Shown in pieces: positions 1 to 47,679 of a stretch of DNA of 64,000 bases (position 1 is the stretch's first letter; each line of letters starts with the position of its first letter). Source of the stretch: a virus; the IMG/VR virus record IMGVR_UViG_3300048927_000308, positions 1-64,000 of that record; one strand, written 5' to 3'. The translations under genes and the position numbers were made by a program. The notes below the pieces were generated by a model. It was not told where the DNA came from, did not search any database, and saw only the letters and a program-made list of their open reading frames with translations.

Positions 1-2
1 GC

Positions 3-28
3 TTCCCCCAAACGAAGGTTATCAAGAA
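3..28 (-). other. Putative DNA-invertase crossover site (cix/gix/hix-like)
   Basis: Minus strand reads TTCTTGATAACCTTCGTTTGGGGGAA, a 26-bp imperfect palindrome resembling hixL TTCTTGAAAACCAAGGTTTTTGATAA. It encodes LDNLRLGE inside the fibre gene. Confidence 0.7.
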
Positions 29-929
29 CCTTTTGAATGGCTGCGTCCCCCTGGTCAGAGATCTCTTTCAGGAAGTTCGCAATCATCAAATACTGGTCGT
101 GAGGGTTATCTTTCTGCTCATGATTTTTGATGCCATCGCTCACCGCTTTTGGCGTCGCGGCCTTCTTCTGGTCGGCTGATTCATAAGAATCGCTAAACTC
201 AAGGCCTATATTTTTCTGCGCCTCAGCTACCGCTTTGTCTCCCTGATCAGCAATCTCACGAAGCAGGTTTTCGCTCTGCAAATACTGCGGATGCGGGTTC
301 GGCTTTCCTTCATGTGCGGCGATACCGTCACTAACGGCCTTCGGTGTGGCAGCCTTCTTCTCTTCCTGGCTTTCGTAGTCGTTGCTGAGCTCAATACCGA
401 TCGTTGCAACCTTTTTGCTGGTGCTGTCGATCATATCCTCGGTCAGCTGCGTCGCACCGGCAGGCACGTTTACGGTGCAGATAAGCAGCTCGCCCTCACC
501 CAGCACATAGCTATCGGTGTAGGTTTTGGCGTTGATCTCGGCCGCCTGGATATTCGATTTGGAGTTAACCTGATAGGTATCAGAGCCAAGCGTATAAACG
601 CCTTTCAGCACAATAGCGAATTTGGTGCCGGCAGAGAGCTGCAATGTCACGTCTTTTTGCTGGCGAATCGTGAGCTGGTAATCGTTGCCAATATTCACCG
701 AGGCAGAACCTGTATTGCCCTCGGCTCCCTCAGAGGTGATCACAAGCGCAAGACCACCGCCGAGACGAGGCAGGAACCCAGTGTAAAAGCCTTCTTTCAG
801 AATGCCGCGCAGCTTGCGGTTCAGTCCGGCAGATACGTATGGCTCATGGTATTGGACGTCGGCCACCAGCGCCAGCGTGGTCGGATCCGGGAAAGAAACA
901 GAGGAGATAACAACAGAATCGGTACTCAT
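3..929 (-). CDS. S: Tail fibre protein S, N-terminal constant region (partial, runs off the window start)
   Basis: Manual translation from the ATG at 929 gives MSTDSVVISSVSFPDPTTLALVADVQYHEPYVSAGLNRKLRG..., close to the P1 gpS N-terminus. AATPKAV fibre repeats are present and the gene lies downstream of R. Confidence 0.9.
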   Translation of the reverse strand, partial: MSTDSVVISSVSFPDPTTLALVADVQYHEPYVSAGLNRKLRGILKEGFYTGFLPRLGGGLALVITSEGAEGNTGSASVNIGNDYQLTIRQQKDVTLQLSAGTKFAIVLKGVYTLGSDTYQVNSKSNIQAAEINAKTYTDSYVLGEGELLICTVNVPAGATQLTEDMIDSTSKKVATIGIELSNDYESQEEKKAATPKAVSDGIAAHEGKPNPHPQYLQSENLLREIADQGDKAVAEAQKNIGLEFSDSYESADQKKAATPKAVSDGIKNHEQKDNPHDQYLMIANFLKEISDQGDAAIQKVLDNLRLGE

Positions 930-10256: not shown

Positions 10257-10826
10257 TTATCCCTTTTTGTAGCAAATAGCTTCGGCGGCACTATGCAAAA
10301 CGCCATCTGAAAGGCCTGGATTCTGGCGCTTTTGCTTCTGCAATTCGGCCGCTACGCAGCTTTTAAAGTCGGTGCTGCTTAAGGATGGCTGCTGTCGCAT
10401 GCCTGGCGCATTTTTAATGGACTCGATGCCATTTTTGCCAGCATCTTCTTTGCGGACAGCGTTGCTGGCCACCAATACTCCCCAGCTTGGGATCGCGAAG
10501 TCTGGCGCAGTTTCACAGGCTTTTACCATGTAGTCAAAGGAGCTGCGATTGACAGAATTTACGTCCGGATTCAGCAAACGGGAGTATTGTTGTTTCGTAT
10601 TTTCGTTGGTAGAAACCTTGTAGAGCTCCTCCTGCACCATGGCTTCTGAAAGTTTAAGGCGCTTCATGTCGGAAACTAGCAGTTGACGCATTGATTCATC
10701 TTCGCTGACAGCGAACCCGTATACGTGGCCGAGATACTTTGTGTAATCAGTGCAGATTTCATTAAGACTGGATGAGGCATTAGCGGTGCCTGCGAAAAAA
10801 CACAGGGCTAAGACTACATTTTTCAT
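10257..10826 (-). CDS. Secreted/periplasmic hypothetical protein
   Basis: Signal peptide MKNVVLALCFFAGTANA; four Cys in the mature part; C1 operator upstream. Confidence 0.75.
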   Translation of the reverse strand: MKNVVLALCFFAGTANASSSLNEICTDYTKYLGHVYGFAVSEDESMRQLLVSDMKRLKLSEAMVQEELYKVSTNENTKQQYSRLLNPDVNSVNRSSFDYMVKACETAPDFAIPSWGVLVASNAVRKEDAGKNGIESIKNAPGMRQQPSLSSTDFKSCVAAELQKQKRQNPGLSDGVLHSAAEAICYKKG

Positions 10827-10899
10827 GTTTTTGCTCGTTATCATTACCATAACTTGATAATAGCCTGAAAAAACACATGAAAATAGTGGACATACATAC

Positions 10900-10916
10900 A
10901 TTGCTCTAATAGAAAA
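10900..10916 (+). promoter_or_regulatory. C1 repressor operator
   Basis: ATTGCTCTAATAGAAAA versus P1 consensus ATTGCTCTAATAAATTT. Confidence 0.7.
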
Positions 10917-10958
10917 ATGCCCCAGCGGCAGCTAGGGCATTTCGCATCGAGTTGAAAC

Positions 10959-11468
10959 TTAGTCCCAATCGATCCAGTTGTACACAATACGCAGCGGCGG
11001 GCGAACAGCTGCCGTCACGTCTTCTGTGCTCATATCAATCGCATCACTGTAGATTTTACAGTCCAACATCTCGATAGTGGTAGCCGGATTTGTTGCGACA
11101 GCGGTGCTGCTCGCTTTAGATTCCGGTGTAGCCGCCATGGTGATATCTACATAATCCTTCGCAGCAATGCGTGCTTTGATGAATTGAAGAATTTCACCTT
11201 CAATCGTTTCGACACATTGAACTTGCAATTCACCAGAGTTACGGATAGGACCGTGCTGGTTAAATTTGAGACCGTTCGGGCCGTAATCTTCTACGTCCTC
11301 ACGCGTCATCTCAGGGATCTGCGCGGTACGCACAAGCACGCTGAGCCCTTCATGACCGGCGAAGGTGAGCTGAAATTCGGAAGAAACCAACTTCTCCCCT
11401 TTTGCCACGTTAGCGGTGTAGCGGTTTTTAAGGAACGCTTTGTTCCCCTTGGTGTTACTGTGTCCCAT
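10959..11468 (-). CDS. bplB: Tail tube protein BplB
   Basis: 169 aa, MGHSNTKGN... N-terminus, tube-like, P1 synteny. Confidence 0.75.
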   Translation of the reverse strand: MGHSNTKGNKAFLKNRYTANVAKGEKLVSSEFQLTFAGHEGLSVLVRTAQIPEMTREDVEDYGPNGLKFNQHGPIRNSGELQVQCVETIEGEILQFIKARIAAKDYVDITMAATPESKASSTAVATNPATTIEMLDCKIYSDAIDMSTEDVTAAVRPPLRIVYNWIDWD

Positions 11469-30634: not shown

Positions 30635-31243
30635 TTAGCCCTTCGCCACTGTAACCTGTGCGGCCTTTATCGCAAGTGTACCGCCAGACTCAATTCCCAT
30701 ATTGCCGCCAGCCTTGATATTCATATCACCGACAGCCGAAATAAACGCGTCACCCTGTGACATAGCGAATAGCTCCCCCGCCTCGTTAAACCCGATCGTT
30801 GTGCCGCTGCCCATATGTGTGACCGACCAGCTGCCGCCCGCATTGCGGATCTCCATGAGGCCATTGCGCGAATAAACATAGTCTTTGGTAGCGCTGGTGG
30901 ACGGCATAGCTGGTGCTCCATCTACATCAGGCGGTGTGTATCCGGTGCCCTGTCCGGAGGCCTCCGGAGGGACATTAGGCGCACCGCCGGAAGCATCCTG
31001 CGCGTAGCCAATAATGAGTGGCCAGCGTGAGTCGCCGTTATACGGAAACTCTACCCACACCTTATCGCCCGCCAAGAATGGGGAAAAGGTGTTCGCGTTC
31101 TGAAGGATGGTTTCTGCCCAAGGCAGAGCATTATCTGGTAGGCCAGCCATGAGCCCATCAACGCGGATCTGCGTGCGCATTAGCCCTTTCGGATCGTCAA
31201 CACTGACAACAACCGCGCGATACTTCCCTGTAAAATTACCCAT
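30635..31243 (-). CDS. Baseplate spike gp5 (gpV-like)
   Basis: [11 protein letters not shown]...R OB-fold, WAE, VWVEF..GD and a beta-helix C-terminus. Confidence 0.9.
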
Positions 31244-32252
31244 TAACCACTCCTAACTGTGCCCGCGTGACGTAGCGGAATCGCTCTTCATAATGCGTTG
31301 CCGACGTGACAATCATTTTTGCCGGGACTGATTCGTCCGCCCCGCCATCGCCACCGACGTTATTCACAAGCACCTTAATCACATTGCCGGGCGTCAAGGC
31401 GCTGTTGCCTTCCACCAGCATATCGAACCGGGGCAGTATGAATTTGTTGTAATTTGCCAGCGCCATCGGATCAGGATTGCTGGTAAATTTAACCGGTGCG
31501 TCTTTGCTTCCCGAGTACACCACCCCTTTTGTCATATCGTAACTGGCCATCCGGTAGTTGTGCCGGCGCTGATATTCGTACTCGGCATTCAGGATGTTAA
31601 ATTGGCTGATCGTGAGGCCTTTGGTGTTCGGATTGCCTGATTCGTAAGTCAACGTGGCATCGGCGTTAGTAAGCTTATCCATGCTCCGGAAATTAATGGC
31701 TCCGCGCGATACCCAGCACATGGAGCCGGTATCGCGGCCCATCTCCTGAAGTACCTGTGTGGGCTTCTCACCAACGTTCAGATGATAGGTGGATGTTTTC
31801 CTGAATGAGTCAGCGTTCACCTTCAGGGAAGGGGCTAATGCGCCCACGATGACGCCTGGCTGCTTATCGACAAAGTATTGCGGGCTGGTGGCCGGGATTT
31901 TCAGCAGACGAACGGCGTCACTGAAGGCGTAAATCATCACAGTGTCAGCTTGGCGCGGCGCTTTCAGTACGAAAAACTCTTCTGAGAAGAGTAGGCCACC
32001 GATACCCTCCGGATCGCCCATGGAAACCGTCAGCACTGTGCCAAACTTCACGCCGAGTTTGTTAACAACATACGCCGTGCTGTCTCGCACGGTCAGCATC
32101 AGTTGCGGCGCTGTCAGCTGTCCTTGCTCCACATAAACGCATCCTACAATCATTTCACGAGGTATCTCGTTTTCGCCGATTTTTACACTCTGCAAAAAAA
32201 GTTGCGTTCTTTTTGATCCAGATGCTGGAGAGGACGTAATTTTCGTAACCAT
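31236..32252 (-). CDS. Baseplate hub gp6
   Basis: [11 protein letters not shown] resembles P1 gp6; synteny agrees. Confidence 0.8.
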
Positions 32253-32274
32253 TCATAACATCCTGTATTGATTT

Positions 32275-32696
32275 GGAAGCTCCAATCCTTAGAATTTTTC
32301 TACCCCAAAAGTATTAGGGGTGCTGGCGTGAGAACCAGCCTCAAGAGGCCCGGCTAACAGCTGGGCCATCAGCTGTCTGTTCAATGGCGAACCGGACGAG
32401 GCCAGCTTTGTCTGGGCCGAACTTGATCGGATTCTCACCCTTGTCCGGTTCGCCACCAGTCGCTGCTCTTTTATGGGAGAAAAAATGCAATTTCCTACCA
32501 TCAGTCCGGAGGAGTTTTACGCAGCCTGCCGGGAGCTACATTTACCCCACACAGCAATCGCAGTTTCCGCTTTATCACGCCATTTCTTGATAACACACCC
32601 TGAAAGTTCAAACTTTTGCCCTCGTTTGTTCCTTCGCTCACTAAAACGTCAATCACTGGCTTATATCCGTATCGCTCGCGCTAGGCGGGAGCCTCC
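32275..32696 (-). ncRNA. Candidate large structured non-coding element between genes 24 and 6
   Basis: Nested complementary arms seen by eye: 32688-96/32275-83, 32575-82/32324-31, a perfect 13-bp 32443-55/32385-97, and several local hairpins. Confidence 0.5.
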
Positions 32697-33484
32697 CCCT
32701 GCTGCACTCGGGCTTTGACTGATATTCTGGCGTCTGTCTGGTTGACGTAGGAAAGCAACGGAAGGTCGGCAATAACATTAAGATCCAGGCCAACGGCAAA
32801 TAACCGATTCTCTTCGGTCCCGGGAGTAAGATCCTCAAAAGCGATAGATTTTTGCCCGTTTATAACGCACTCCACGGACATGTCAGCACCTGCTAATTCG
32901 CTGGTGGCGGTAAATGAGGCCTGGCCTCGACTGGCATAAAAACGCAGCCAGAAGGCTAGGGCCGTAGCTACCATATTCAGCGATTCTTTTTCATCACTGG
33001 CTATCCATAGCGTGTAATCAAGTGATACCGGCATTGTCGCCACCAGCGCAGTAGTAGTGCCATTCTCATCAGATATTTGGCCATCGTCGAAGACATCGCG
33101 GCTCAGTTCGCCTTCATAAACTGAGAATGCTGGAGAGCGTGAAAGGTTGATTAGCGGCATAGCCAGCTTATTAACTTTTCCCGGAGGACAAGCACTATCT
33201 TTTCGTCCGGAACGGGAGGATTCAAAGGCCGCGAGCCAGGCGTCAACGCTACTGAATGTACCGAGTGTTATACGATCGCGAGGCGAGCGTTTCAGGAACT
33301 CACGGAATGACTTATTGGCGCGATCGGGAACCGATACAACCAGCGGCGCAAAGGCCTCATTCAACGCATCGGCAAACGCAGTGTCGATGCAGTCAAGCGT
33401 CAGAAATTCCTGTTTGCCTGTGGGTGTGAGCATCTTCTTTCGAAAGACGGCCAGCAGCCATTCCATTTCAACAAGAGTTGCCAT
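32681..33484 (-). CDS. Tail terminator/completion protein gp24-like
   Basis: P1 synteny (26-25-7-24-6-5); motif P.INLSRS. Confidence 0.7.
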
Positions 33485-34217
33485 CAAAATTTCCTTCAAA
33501 AGCTCGTGAGGGCACGCAGTAGAATAGGCTGCCTACCTTCGAGGTGCCGTAGTTAAAGATGCGGTGTATGTACCAGAAGCGGCGCACAGTGGAGCCATCA
33601 GAAAGCTCTTCCAACCATTCCAGCATTGAGCCAACCGGGACGTTAACGGCTGCTAGACGCAGTATCAGCGCAGTATCGCTAATACCGGTATTGTCGCTGT
33701 CATCGTAGAGCGAGCGGAAAGATTCCATTTCGTCAGGACAATCCAGCGCAGTAATGAGCTCCGGCTCCCGGTAGTCATAGATCTGTTGGTTAGGCTCGAT
33801 CACTTCGGATGCCGTATCTGTTGTGCCGGCGCGCTGGTGGGGGACCGCCCGGTAAAGCACCGCGTCGAATGAATCAGGGTCTAATTTGATGGCTTTGAGC
33901 CAGTCCATCCGCACCAGGTTATTAAATACTGCATGACCTTCATAACGGTGGCGCACACCAGAATCACTAAGCAGGCCGTGATCCAGATTGGGAATGTCAG
34001 GGTCCGCCAAACGATCAACAAAATTCCCAACGTCATCACCATCGCTTTCGATTTCAGCATCGTTTTCTTCCTCTTCCGTAAAATCGTCTGCATCGAGATC
34101 CACCAGCTCCGGTGAATCTTCCTGCCCATCATCCGTATTGGTGGCCGGGAGGGTATCACCGGTCATTTGTGGCGACTTCTCGCCCCCCTCAAACATATCG
34201 TCGAAAAAACCAGCCAT
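33468..34217 (-). CDS. Tail/neck protein gp7-like
   Basis: Acidic N-terminus [10 protein letters not shown]; synteny. Confidence 0.7.
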
Positions 34218-46120: not shown

Positions 46121-46249
46121 GTTGTGGGTGTAGCTTAAATGGTAGAGCGCCTCTTGAAGGAGGAGTTGAGCGCTGCCCAAGGTTCATTACCCGGGGCATC
46201 TCATACGGCTGGCCAGACGTTATCCGGGTTCGAGTCCCGGCACCACAAC
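46121..46249 (+). ncRNA. tRNA-like structured RNA (non-canonical)
   Basis: D-arm GCTT-AAATGGTA-GAGC, T-arm CCGGG-TTCGAGT-CCCGG, acceptor GTTGTG(G)GTG/CACCACAAC. The anticodon loop is shrunken, the variable region is ~60 nt, and there is no CCA end. Confidence 0.65.
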
Positions 46250-46509: not shown

Positions 46510-46719
46510 ATGGCTTTTACAACTCCTACCACTGATGATGTTAGAAATTATTCTAACGATTTGTCTTTAGACCTCACTTCACCCGACGCTGCTCGTATTC
46601 TTACCGAGCATCACCTCAAGCTCTCAAACCAGGACTACCGCGTCTCAGATGACGACCGGAACGACTTGGAAGACTCCATTGAGTACCAGATCTACACCCT
46701 CCTCACAGAATCCTCTTGA
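46510..46719 (+). CDS. coi: C1 inactivator Coi
   Basis: 69-aa acidic protein MAFTTPTTDDVR..., similar to P1 Coi and upstream of c1. Confidence 0.9.
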   Translation: MAFTTPTTDDVRNYSNDLSLDLTSPDAARILTEHHLKLSNQDYRVSDDDRNDLEDSIEYQIYTLLTESS

Positions 46720-46827: not shown

Positions 46828-47679
46828 ATGGTCAACTATGTCTATGGCGAGAAGCTATACAGGGAATTCGTTAAGTTTAGGGAGCAATTTCTTGCCAGTG
46901 CTGTTGAGCGCGCGCAGCATGTAGACACAGCAAGCGATGGGCGGGCGGTTCGTCCGGTTGTTGTTTTGCCATTCAAAGAAACAGATCGCATCCAGGCTGA
47001 AATTGATAAATGGACCGCGATGGCCAGCGAGCTGGAGCAGTATCCAGATCTTAACGTGCCCAAGACCATCCTTTACCCTATTCCAAATATTCTACGTGGA
47101 GTAAGGAAGGCTACAACCTATCAAACAGAAGCTATTAACAGCGTCAATATGACCGCTAAACGCATTATTCATCTGTTGGATAAAGACATTCGTATTCAAA
47201 CGACATCTGATACGAGTGATTGGGGAAAGAAATATATAAGCAATCTTGAGAAAACCAAAAAAATATTTGAACAGTTCCCTGATGATGAAAAGTTCAGAAT
47301 GAGGATCCATGGTTTCAGCGAAACAATGCTGAGAGTCCACTACATCTCCACCAGCCCTAATTTTAATGGTGGCAAGTCAGTGCCTTACCATGTTCCTTTG
47401 TGTGGGGTATTCATCTGCGATGAAACTTTACGGGATGGATTGTCCATTGGGCCAGAGTTTGAAAAAGAGAAGTTTAGCTTATACGACTCGCTTGAACCTA
47501 TTATTTGTGACCGCTGGCCACAAGCTAAAATTTACCGAATGAAAGATATCGAAGATGTTAAAGGTAAACTTGCACAACTCAGAGAAAATAAGAAAGCACA
47601 ATCAGCAGCTTCCACAACTCGCACCCGTAAAACAAAATCGGGAAATTCAGTTAATGAAAATCCCGATAGTGCCAAATAA
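46828..47679 (+). CDS. c1: Primary repressor C1
   Basis: 283 aa starting MVNYVYGE, as P1 C1; convergent with pacB. Confidence 0.93.
   Translation: MVNYVYGEKLYREFVKFREQFLASAVERAQHVDTASDGRAVRPVVVLPFKETDRIQAEIDKWTAMASELEQYPDLNVPKTILYPIPNILRGVRKATTYQTEAINSVNMTAKRIIHLLDKDIRIQTTSDTSDWGKKYISNLEKTKKIFEQFPDDEKFRMRIHGFSETMLRVHYISTSPNFNGGKSVPYHVPLCGVFICDETLRDGLSIGPEFEKEKFSLYDSLEPIICDRWPQAKIYRMKDIEDVKGKLAQLRENKKAQSAASTTRTRKTKSGNSVNENPDSAK

What the first reader, a model, noticed from the sequence alone, without database searches (positions are those of the whole stretch)
32275..32696. ~420-nt nested structured element (candidate novel large ncRNA) inside the late tail operon
Seen in sequence: genes 24 and 6 lie in an otherwise tightly packed operon, yet ~430 nt separate them here. 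On the transcribed (minus) strand a terminal stem closes the whole interval (GGAGGCTCC 32696-88 with GGAGCTTCC 32283-75, one G-U). Nested inside are TGGCGTGA/TCACGCCA (32582-75/32331-24) flanked by GGGTGT/GCACCC, a perfect 13-bp stem TGGCGAACCGGAC/GTCCGGTTCGCCA, a GCTGC/GCAGC arm enclosing an ATGG.AGGAAA/TTTTCT.CCAT hairpin, and ACAGCTG, GCCTC and ACCCC hairpins. The 5' arm overlaps the last codons of gene 24. I see no tRNA, tmRNA, RNase P or group II intron signature. Inference: a multi-domain RNA (comparable in kind to large phage ncRNAs such as ROOL/GOLLD), a ribozyme, or a non-autonomous insert, co-expressed at virion assembly.
Basis: partly seen in the sequence, partly recalled or inferred. 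Interest (0 to 1): 0.85.

Follow-up and report, generated by a model that had tools for sequence, protein, structure and literature searches.

The report
C4 antisense-RNA cassette in tail operon
The ~430-base gap between tail genes 24 and 6 of this P1-like phage is not a large new RNA: it is an inserted cassette on the opposite strand that holds a known phage regulatory RNA (C4 antisense RNA) and a small protein gene of unknown function.

Summary
The gap is real. P1 and 77 of 83 related loci have genes 24 and 6 abutting; only this phage, Cronobacter phage JK004 and one metagenome contig carry about 430 extra bases.

- Rfam places a C4 antisense RNA (RF01695, 56.4 bits, cut-off 45) on the plus strand at 32380-32460.
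- All the excess folding energy sits in that 81-nt stretch (z -5.9). The right half folds no better than shuffles (z +1.5).
- The right half is a conserved 77-codon plus-strand gene, 32485-32718. Its substitutions pile up at third codon positions (26 of 38, p 1e-5).
- The long-range closing stems are at chance level and break in the divergent relative.

What is there: a sigma-70-like promoter, a leader whose hairpin loop displays a 7-nt complement of the C4 junction, the C4 RNA, and an orphan basic protein gene.

The phage has no icd, ant, kilA or repL and no other C4. This is therefore a known RNA switch with new cargo at a new site. An overlapping window's first-stage note reads it the same way, and the scan has seen C4 cassettes with non-icd/ant cargo on other DNA.

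The parts
32268..32295 (+). sigma-70-like promoter, TTGATT-16 nt-TAGAAT
   Evidence: It is the only promoter-like site in 32100-32900. In L088 the -35 reads TTGACC and the -10 region is shifted by one inserted A. No C1-operator-like 17-mer lies nearby. Activity was not tested.
32322..32339 (+). leader hairpin B: 5-bp stem with the 8-nt loop CGUGAGAA, which displays the a1-like site GUGAGAA (32328-32334)
   Evidence: RNAalifold consensus; the closing pair G-C becomes A-U in L088 and all three sequences keep 5 of 5 pairs. The 7-nt perfect complement to the C4 junction UUCUCAC is reached by 71 of 5000 shuffled leaders. Duplex energy is -15.4 kcal/mol.
32341..32346 (+). b1-like site UCAAGA in the linker between hairpins B and C; its first five bases UCAAG are complementary to CUUGA in the loop of C4 hairpin 2
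   Evidence: A 5-nt perfect complement lies 6 nt after a1; P1 has 7 nt between a1 and b1. The site is invariant in the three sequences. It is too short to be significant on its own.
32347..32367 (+). leader hairpin C, 9-bp stem
   Evidence: RNAalifold finds two pairs changed on both sides in L088 (G-C to U-A, C-G to U-A). It also contains a G-U pair that would be C-A on the minus strand.
32380..32460 (+). C4 antisense RNA gene (Rfam RF01695). The mature RNA is predicted at about 32387-32457, 71 nt. The closing stem pairs 32385-32401 with 32439-32455. Hairpin 1 is 32402-32415. Hairpin 2 is 32417-32430, with loop ACUUGA (the b' equivalent). The junction AUUCUCAC at 32431-32438 is the a' equivalent.
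   Evidence: cmscan gives 56.4 bits against a gathering score of 45, over the full-length model. The MFE fold matches the family consensus and z is -5.9. Orthologues score 50 bits in JK004 and 60.7 bits in L088. The ends are inferred by alignment to the annotated 77-nt P1 C4.
32475..32481 (+). Shine-Dalgarno region of ORF77, GGGAGAA; candidate a2 site matching a1 at 6 of 7 positions
   Evidence: GGAG lies 5 nt before the ATG at 32485 and GGAGAA is invariant in the three sequences. Pairing with the C4 junction is weak (-7.6 kcal/mol) and not beyond chance (2871 of 5000 shuffles).
32485..32718 (+). ORF77: a 77-aa basic protein without a known family, the cargo of the cassette. Its last 38 nt overlap the 3' end of gene 24 on the other strand.
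   Evidence: Same-length orthologues exist in JK004 (92% identity), L088 (81%) and P0001 (61%). Substitutions by codon position are 9/3/26 against L088 and 5/0/13 against JK004, with p 1e-5 and 9e-4. The upstream ATG at 32473 is ATT in L088. There are no Pfam, PHROG or NCBIfam hits, and a full HMMER search found only the protein itself.
32681..33499 (-). homologue of P1 gene 24 (baseplate protein); late operon, upstream flank
   Evidence: tblastn gives 65% identity to P1 gp24; phrog_1767 at E 5e-101.
31236..32252 (-). homologue of P1 gene 6 (tail protein); downstream flank, with its own AGGA ribosome-binding site at 32259-32262
   Evidence: tblastn gives 77% identity to P1 gp6; phrog_1390 at E 4.5e-142. 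The sequence is shown.

Best explanation
The 24/6 gap is a ~430-bp cassette inserted into the late baseplate operon of one P1-like lineage. It is read from the opposite (plus) strand.

Layout, in order:
- a sigma-70-like promoter at 32268-32295 with no C1 operator;
- an ~85-nt leader with two conserved hairpins;
- a C4-type antisense RNA at 32380-32460;
- a 77-codon gene, ORF77, at 32485-32718.

Shown here: family membership of the RNA, its strand, the coding nature of ORF77, the insertion itself, and the absence of icd, ant, kilA and repL from the genome.

Inferred by analogy with the P1/P7 immI operon and the P4 CI RNA:
- The primary transcript is processed, with RNase P cutting at the 5' end, to a stable RNA of about 71 nt.
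- That RNA uses its single-stranded junction (UUCUCAC) and the loop of hairpin 2 (CUUGA) to pair with sites on new transcripts of the same cassette.
- The targets would be GUGAGAA in the loop of leader hairpin B together with the adjacent UCAAG, and more weakly GGGAGAA at the ORF77 ribosome-binding site together with AUCAGU at codons 6-7.
- This keeps ORF77 off in the lysogen and on superinfecting genomes.

ORF77 would then be the gene that must stay silent during lysogeny. The likeliest role is a small antirepressor or other lytic-switch or host-takeover factor standing in for icd-ant. Its function is not shown.
For: RNA identity and strand:
- cmscan finds RF01695 on the plus strand only, at 56.4 bits against a gathering score of 45. 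The orthologues score 50 and 60.7 bits.
- The fold matches the family consensus and P1 C4.
- G-U pairs in the C4 closing stem and in hairpin C would be C-A mismatches on the minus strand.
- The 3' end reads GCCACCA, as in the family consensus. The P1/P7 C4 precursor is a known RNase P substrate (Hartmann et al. 1995, listed as reference 206 in PMC4919922).

Insertion:
- P1 has a 1-nt gap between genes 24 and 6, and 77 of 83 loci show the tight P1-type junction.
- L088 has the same architecture as the window.

ORF77 is coding:
- Substitutions are biased to the third codon position, p 1e-5.
- Four orthologues have equal length.
- The GGAG ribosome-binding site is conserved, and the alternative ATG is lost in L088.

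Leader target:
- The 7-nt perfect complement sits in a hairpin loop whose stem covaries. Only 71 of 5000 shuffles reach it.
- The order and spacing of a1 and b1 match P1.

Genome context:
- This is the only C4 in the 90-kb record and in the complete JK004 genome.
- No Icd or Ant1 homologue exists in either.
- The canonical site runs from the sim-like gene directly into bplB.
- The nearest relative without the insert has sim|c4-icd-ant.
- No C1 operator lies near the cassette.

The P1 mechanism is summarised in PMC8201110.
Against: - Pairing of C4 with the ORF77 ribosome-binding site is weak (-7.6 kcal/mol against -19.4 for P1 b2) and at chance level. Repression of ORF77 by C4 is therefore not supported by sequence statistics.
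- Only three DNA sequences exist. The recognition elements are invariant among them, so there is no covariation between the RNA and its targets.
- The closing stem carries one mismatch in JK004 and one in L088.
- The promoter is a consensus match only, and its -10 region is altered in L088.
- ORF77 has no detectable homologue of known function. Its model is of middling confidence (pLDDT 71).
Confidence: 0.8

Rival explanations
1. One reading: one ~420-nt multi-domain RNA on the minus strand, closed by a terminal stem. It would be part of the late transcript and act as a large ncRNA or ribozyme of the ROOL/GOLLD kind.
For: All the quoted stems exist. The minus strand folds better than shuffles, z -2.7 to -2.8. 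The late transcript must cross this interval, since no terminator-like site lies on either strand.
Against: - The energy excess is confined to the 81-nt C4 segment; 32461-32696 has z +1.4 on the minus strand.
- The terminal and 8-bp stems are at chance level and break in L088 on the minus strand, at 5 of 9 and 5 of 8 pairs.
- The ACAGCTG and GCCTC hairpins also break in L088, while alternative plus-strand hairpins covary.
- Half the interval evolves as a plus-strand coding gene.
- No large-RNA, ribozyme or intron family matches at E<=10.
Confidence: 0.03
2. An orphan immunity RNA. C4 is functional, but its downstream sites have decayed and ORF77 is expressed independently of it. The RNA would act mainly in trans, on superinfecting relatives that carry a c4-icd-ant module with the same recognition code, and on its own leader for autoregulation.
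For: The upstream a1 site is strong and displayed in a covarying hairpin, while the site at the ribosome-binding site is at chance level. The phage has no ant of its own. Earlier notes of this scan describe sets of C4 recognition codes in P1-like plasmids, and one C4 cassette whose target sites had decayed (unchecked leads).
Against: C4 and ORF77 stay adjacent and co-oriented with a 24-26-nt spacer in all three DNA relatives. GGAGAA at the ribosome-binding site is invariant. No phage with a matching target was looked for or found here.
Confidence: 0.2
3. A cis-antisense brake on the tail operon. The cassette lies inside the 24-6 intercistronic region on the other strand, so C4 and the ORF77 mRNA are fully complementary to the late polycistronic mRNA. 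Convergent transcription and RNA-RNA pairing would damp leaky expression of genes 6 and 5 in lysogens. Late transcription would in turn shut the cassette off.
For: The geometry is shown: the cassette is antisense to the late operon and overlaps the last 38 nt of gene 24. No terminator-like site separates the two transcription units.
Against: This is pure inference and nothing tests it. Most P1 relatives do without the insert. C4 is tightly folded, which disfavours full-length duplex formation.
Confidence: 0.15

Closest known systems
immI operon of phages P1 and P7 (Oc4, P51a/b, a1, b1, c4 RNA, a2, b2, icd, ant1/ant2)
   Same: - The RNA belongs to the same family (RF01695) and has the same fold: a long closing stem, two inner hairpins and a single-stranded junction.
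- The recognition elements sit at the same positions, the hairpin-2 loop and the junction.
- An a-then-b pair of complementary sites lies upstream with P1-like spacing.
- A small ORF of similar size follows at once: 77 aa, against 73 aa for icd.
- The promoter is sigma-70-like.
   Different: - The cargo is not icd or ant. ORF77 shows no similarity to Icd, whereas the P1 Icd control hits NF033153. There is no Ant1 homologue in the genome.
- Only one gene follows the RNA.
- There is no C1 operator.
- The cassette sits antisense inside the baseplate operon instead of beside sim.
- Hairpin 2 is 6 nt shorter.
- The recognition sequences differ: UUCUCAC and CUUGA here, CUGUCAA and UCACUAAC in P1.
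- The site at the ribosome-binding site is weak.
P4 / phiR73 CI immunity RNA
   Same: A small processed RNA that is co-transcribed with its targets and has complementary sites both upstream and downstream of itself. Here too the upstream site is the stronger one. This comparison rests on my knowledge of the P4 literature and was not tested.
   Different: P4 CI acts by premature transcription termination on the early operon of a satellite phage. No termination signal or P4 gene is present here.
C4 cassettes with other cargo or in extra copies in P1-like phage-plasmids
   Same: C4 behaves as a portable switch found at several places in P1-like genomes, sometimes with cargo other than icd-ant (unchecked leads).
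   Different: Here it is the only C4 of a phage that lacks icd-ant altogether. Its cargo is an orphan protein and it sits in the 24/6 junction.

Membership tests
C4 antisense RNA (Rfam RF01695) | Covariance-model score at or above the curated gathering score, over the full-length model | tested here: met
   56.4 bits against 45, model positions 1-87, plus strand. The orthologues score 50 and 60.7 bits.
C4 antisense RNA (Rfam RF01695) | Fold: a long closing stem enclosing two hairpins and a single-stranded junction | tested here: met
   The MFE fold of 32380-32460 has the same topology as P1 C4. RNAalifold on three sequences keeps it, with one-sided G-C/G-U changes.
C4 antisense RNA (Rfam RF01695) | Processing of a precursor by RNase P to a ~77-nt RNA with a 3' CCA-like tail | not testable with these tools
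   The sequence GCCACCA follows the closing stem as in the consensus. Processing itself needs an experiment.
P1/P7 immI operon | Complementary sites a1/b1 upstream of c4 | tested here: met
   GUGAGAA (7 nt; 71 of 5000 shuffles) in a hairpin loop, with UCAAG 6 nt downstream.
P1/P7 immI operon | Complementary sites a2/b2 downstream, one of them covering the ribosome-binding site of the first gene | tested here: inconclusive
   GGGAGAA on the ribosome-binding site matches a1 at 6 of 7 positions. AUCAGU at codons 6-7 pairs with the loop through a bulge. Energy is -7.6 kcal/mol, and 2871 of 5000 shuffles do as well.
P1/P7 immI operon | Cargo icd followed by ant1/ant2 | tested here: not met
   No Icd or Ant1 homologue in the record or in JK004. 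ORF77 compared with Icd gives no alignment, and ORF77 gives no NF033153 hit while the P1 Icd control does.
P1/P7 immI operon | C1 operator (Op51/Oc4) at the promoter | tested here: not met
   Ten operator-like 17-mers in the window, none between 27085 and 40613.
Large phage ncRNAs (ROOL, GOLLD), ribozymes, group II introns, RNase P, tmRNA | Match to the Rfam model of the family | tested here: not met
   cmscan of 31800-33200 on both strands at E<=10 lists only C4 and two chance snoRNA rows.

The most novel reading that the evidence does not exclude
ORF77 is a new kind of small C4-controlled lysis-lysogeny factor, for instance an antirepressor of the phage's C1. It would replace icd-ant in a P1-like lineage that has also lost kilA-repL. 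Its antisense placement inside the baseplate operon would couple the immunity switch to late transcription.
Probability: 0.2. Interest if true: 0.55.

Novelty: new variant of a known kind. Interest (0 to 1): 0.3.

Why it matters
The finding removes a false lead: there is no large novel ncRNA here.

It also documents that the C4 antisense-RNA switch of P1 is portable. It can leave its icd-ant cargo, take on an unrelated orphan gene, and settle inside a late structural operon of a phage that otherwise lacks immI.

If ORF77 proves to be a C4-controlled switch protein, it would show how secondary immunity is rewired in phage-plasmids. It would also give a compact, testable RNA/target pair.

Tried and rejected
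- Genome-wide scan for trans targets of the two recognition elements by duplex energy. Hundreds of sites score as well as the leader site, so it does not discriminate, and I dropped it.
- RNAcofold of C4 with the leader or the 5'UTR. It gives a pairing gain (ddG) of 0 even for the validated P1 pair, because loop-loop contacts are pseudoknotted. Uninformative.
- Homologues of ORF77. PHROGs, Pfam and NCBIfam gave none. The word-indexed search gave one protein, P0001. The full HMMER search gave only the protein itself plus short matches in long repetitive proteins. tblastn against plasmids and phages gave only JK004. Scans of viral and genome contigs gave none.
- Fold of ORF77. Foldseek against PDB and BFVD gave nothing at E<=0.001. 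VIA-align's best hits were winged-helix DNA-binding domains: E2F-DP at Z 6.6, rmsd 2.7 over 70 residues, and E2F8 at Z 5.2. These are below the level at which helical matches mean anything, so they are a lead only.
- Sequencing runs. No RNA holder is listed. The contigs of four DNA runs are identical to the window and add no variants.
- DNA searches of the gap. The only phage match is JK004. Two Mycetohabitans plasmids match the C4 part only, and their neighbourhood was uninformative.
- Late-promoter reading of the TAGAAT box. The -22 box of P1 LP26 has no counterpart upstream of it. Rejected by eye.
- Lobocka 2004 and Hartmann 1995 are not held in the library.

Full report
**Observation**

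The window is a P1-like phage, an IMG/VR virus record of 90,090 bases estimated 89% complete. The two minus-strand ORFs flanking the finding are homologues of P1 gp24 and gp6. The first, 32681-33499, is 272 aa and 65% identical to gp24. The second, 31236-32252, is 338 aa and 77% identical to gp6. They lie 428 nt apart.

In P1 itself gene 24 ends one base before gene 6 starts. I compared 83 loci, most of them fetched with gp24. Of these, 77 have the tight P1-type junction and a few have 38-50 nt. Only the window and Cronobacter phage JK004 (95% identical DNA) have the long gap. A third carrier, metagenome contig L088, turned up later.

The minus strand of 32275-32696 folds better than shuffles, with z about -2.7 to -2.8.

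**Where the structure signal comes from**

I folded the interval in pieces:

| Segment | z, plus strand | z, minus strand |
|---|---|---|
| 32380-32460 | -5.9 | -5.8 |
| leader 32296-32379 | -2.1 | -1.5 |
| 32461-32696 | +1.5 | +1.4 |

Beyond the 13-bp stem, the interval holds a single perfect 8-bp inverted repeat, where shuffles give 1.2 on average. The long-range closing stems are therefore what chance provides.

**What the structured piece is**

Rfam places a full-length C4 antisense RNA (RF01695) on the plus strand at 32380-32460. It scores 56.4 bits against a gathering score of 45.

Its MFE fold has the topology of P1 C4: a closing stem, two inner hairpins and a single-stranded junction. 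No other RNA family matches on either strand at E<=10. It is the only C4 in the 90-kb record. JK004 has one at the same place, at 50 bits.

**What the right half is**

Directly after C4 comes a plus-strand ORF, 32485-32718, with GGAG five bases before its ATG. Same-length orthologues exist in JK004 (92% identity), in L088 (81%) and as a protein from a Logan assembly (P0001, 61%).

Between the window and L088, substitutions in the part that does not overlap gene 24 fall 9/3/26 on codon positions 1/2/3. Against JK004 they fall 5/0/13. The binomial p values are 1e-5 and 9e-4. An alternative upstream ATG at 32473 is ATT in L088.

The protein is basic and has no Pfam, PHROG or NCBIfam family. A full HMMER pass over 1.84 billion representatives finds only the protein itself.

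It is not Icd-like: the P1 Icd control hits NF033153 and ORF77 does not, and BLASTP finds no alignment. The AlphaFold model has four helices at pLDDT 71. Fold searches give only sub-threshold winged-helix-like rows.

**Comparative test of the two readings**

L088 is about 80-90% identical across the cassette.

| Stem | Pairs kept in L088, minus strand |
|---|---|
| terminal 9-bp stem | 5 of 9 |
| 8-bp stem | 5 of 8 |
| GGGTGT/GCACCC | 4 of 6 |
| ACAGCTG hairpin | 4 of 7 |
| GCCTC hairpin | 3 of 5 |

RNAalifold on the plus strand instead finds two leader hairpins with changes on both sides of a pair. Hairpin B pairs 32322-26 with 32335-39 and has one such pair. Hairpin C pairs 32347-55 with 32359-67 and has two. 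G-U pairs in hairpin C and in the C4 stem would be C-A on the minus strand.

**Anatomy on the plus strand**

The only sigma-70-like site in 32100-32900 is TTGATT-16-TAGAAT at 32268-32295. Its -35 is kept in L088 and its -10 region is shifted by one base there. C1-operator-like 17-mers occur ten times in the window, but none lies within 5 kb of the cassette.

In P1, as annotated in NC_005856, the a' element is the junction after hairpin 2 and b' is the loop of hairpin 2. The a1/b1 sites lie upstream and a2/b2 downstream, with b2 on the icd ribosome-binding site.

Here the junction is AUUCUCAC and the loop is ACUUGA. The leader holds GUGAGAA at 32328-32334, a perfect 7-nt complement of the junction. 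It sits exactly in the 8-nt loop of hairpin B. UCAAG follows 6 nt later; P1 has a 7-nt spacing. Only 71 of 5000 dinucleotide shuffles of the leader reach a 7-nt complement.

Downstream, the ribosome-binding site GGGAGAA matches a1 at 6 of 7 positions, and AUCAGU at codons 6-7 can pair with the loop through a bulge. This is weak (-7.6 kcal/mol, against -19.4 for P1 b2) and no better than chance.

By alignment to the mapped P1 RNA, the mature C4 should span about 32387-32457, or 71 nt. It ends in the family's CCACC-type tail.

**Genome context**

P1 has sim, then c4-icd-ant-kilA-repL, then the pmgF-bplB region. Here the sim-like gene (10257-10901) abuts the bplB homologue (10959-11468). tblastn finds no icd, ant1, kilA or repL in the record, and no Icd or Ant1 in the complete JK004 genome.

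The nearest relative without the 24/6 insert, G003, does carry the canonical sim|c4-icd-ant arrangement. This lineage has therefore lost the classical immI region and holds its single C4 in a different cassette at a different place.

**Mechanism**

Shown here:
- a C4-family RNA gene;
- a co-oriented coding gene immediately behind it;
- a conserved complementary site displayed in a leader hairpin loop;
- placement antisense inside the late operon.

Inferred from the P1/P7 and P4 systems (Citron and Schuster 1990 and Riedel et al. 1993, as cited in PMC8201110; Hartmann et al. 1995, as cited in PMC4919922):
- constitutive transcription;
- RNase P-dependent processing;
- pairing of the mature RNA with the leader, and possibly the ribosome-binding site, of new cassette transcripts, which silences ORF77 in lysogens and on incoming genomes.

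I put about 0.45 on repression of ORF77 by C4. The rest is split between two other readings: an orphan immunity RNA acting on its leader and on relatives, and added cis-antisense effects on the 24-6 mRNA. The role of ORF77 is unknown. An antirepressor-like or host-takeover role is the best guess by position only.

**Comparison and novelty**

The RNA is a member of a known family. The cassette is a variant of the immI design: it has a different cargo, no C1 operator, a new location and weak downstream sites.

An overlapping window's first-stage note (e1-6109260) reads the same stretch as an orphan C4. Earlier notes of this scan report C4 modules in extra copies, and one with other cargo, in P1-like plasmids on other DNA. 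I used those as leads only.

**Limits**

- Only three DNA relatives exist, and the recognition elements are invariant among them.
- No RNA data were available.

Noticed in passing
window 10257-11468; also L089: The canonical P1 site for immI and the lytic replicon is empty: a sim-like gene abuts the bplB homologue. No icd, ant1, kilA or repL is found anywhere in the 90-kb record. The nearest relative without the 24/6 insert keeps sim|c4-icd-ant. How this lineage starts lytic replication without kilA-repL is open.
   Followed up: partly
window 46124-46247 (+): An Rfam tRNA match (32.9 bits) with a ~60-nt insert at the anticodon/variable region. It lies in the long leader upstream of coi (46510-46719) and c1 (46828-47679).
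   Followed up: no
window 22066, 27041, 27069, 40613, 43202, 45848, 45932, 46719, 51013, 62487: Ten matches (up to 3 mismatches) to the P1 C1-operator 17-mer, against 0.16 expected. They map the C1 regulon of this phage. None lies near the C4 cassette.
   Followed up: partly
It would link the a1 hairpin to ORF77 codons 31-33. It is compatible with chance (about 1 in 8).
   Followed up: partly
window 32457-32475 (+): An outer stem (32370-79 with 32457-65) extends the C4 helix and is followed by CUCUUUU (CUCUUUUU in L088), just before the ORF77 ribosome-binding site. This could be a leaky terminator or a partner that sequesters the ribosome-binding site. The folds differ between relatives.
   Followed up: partly
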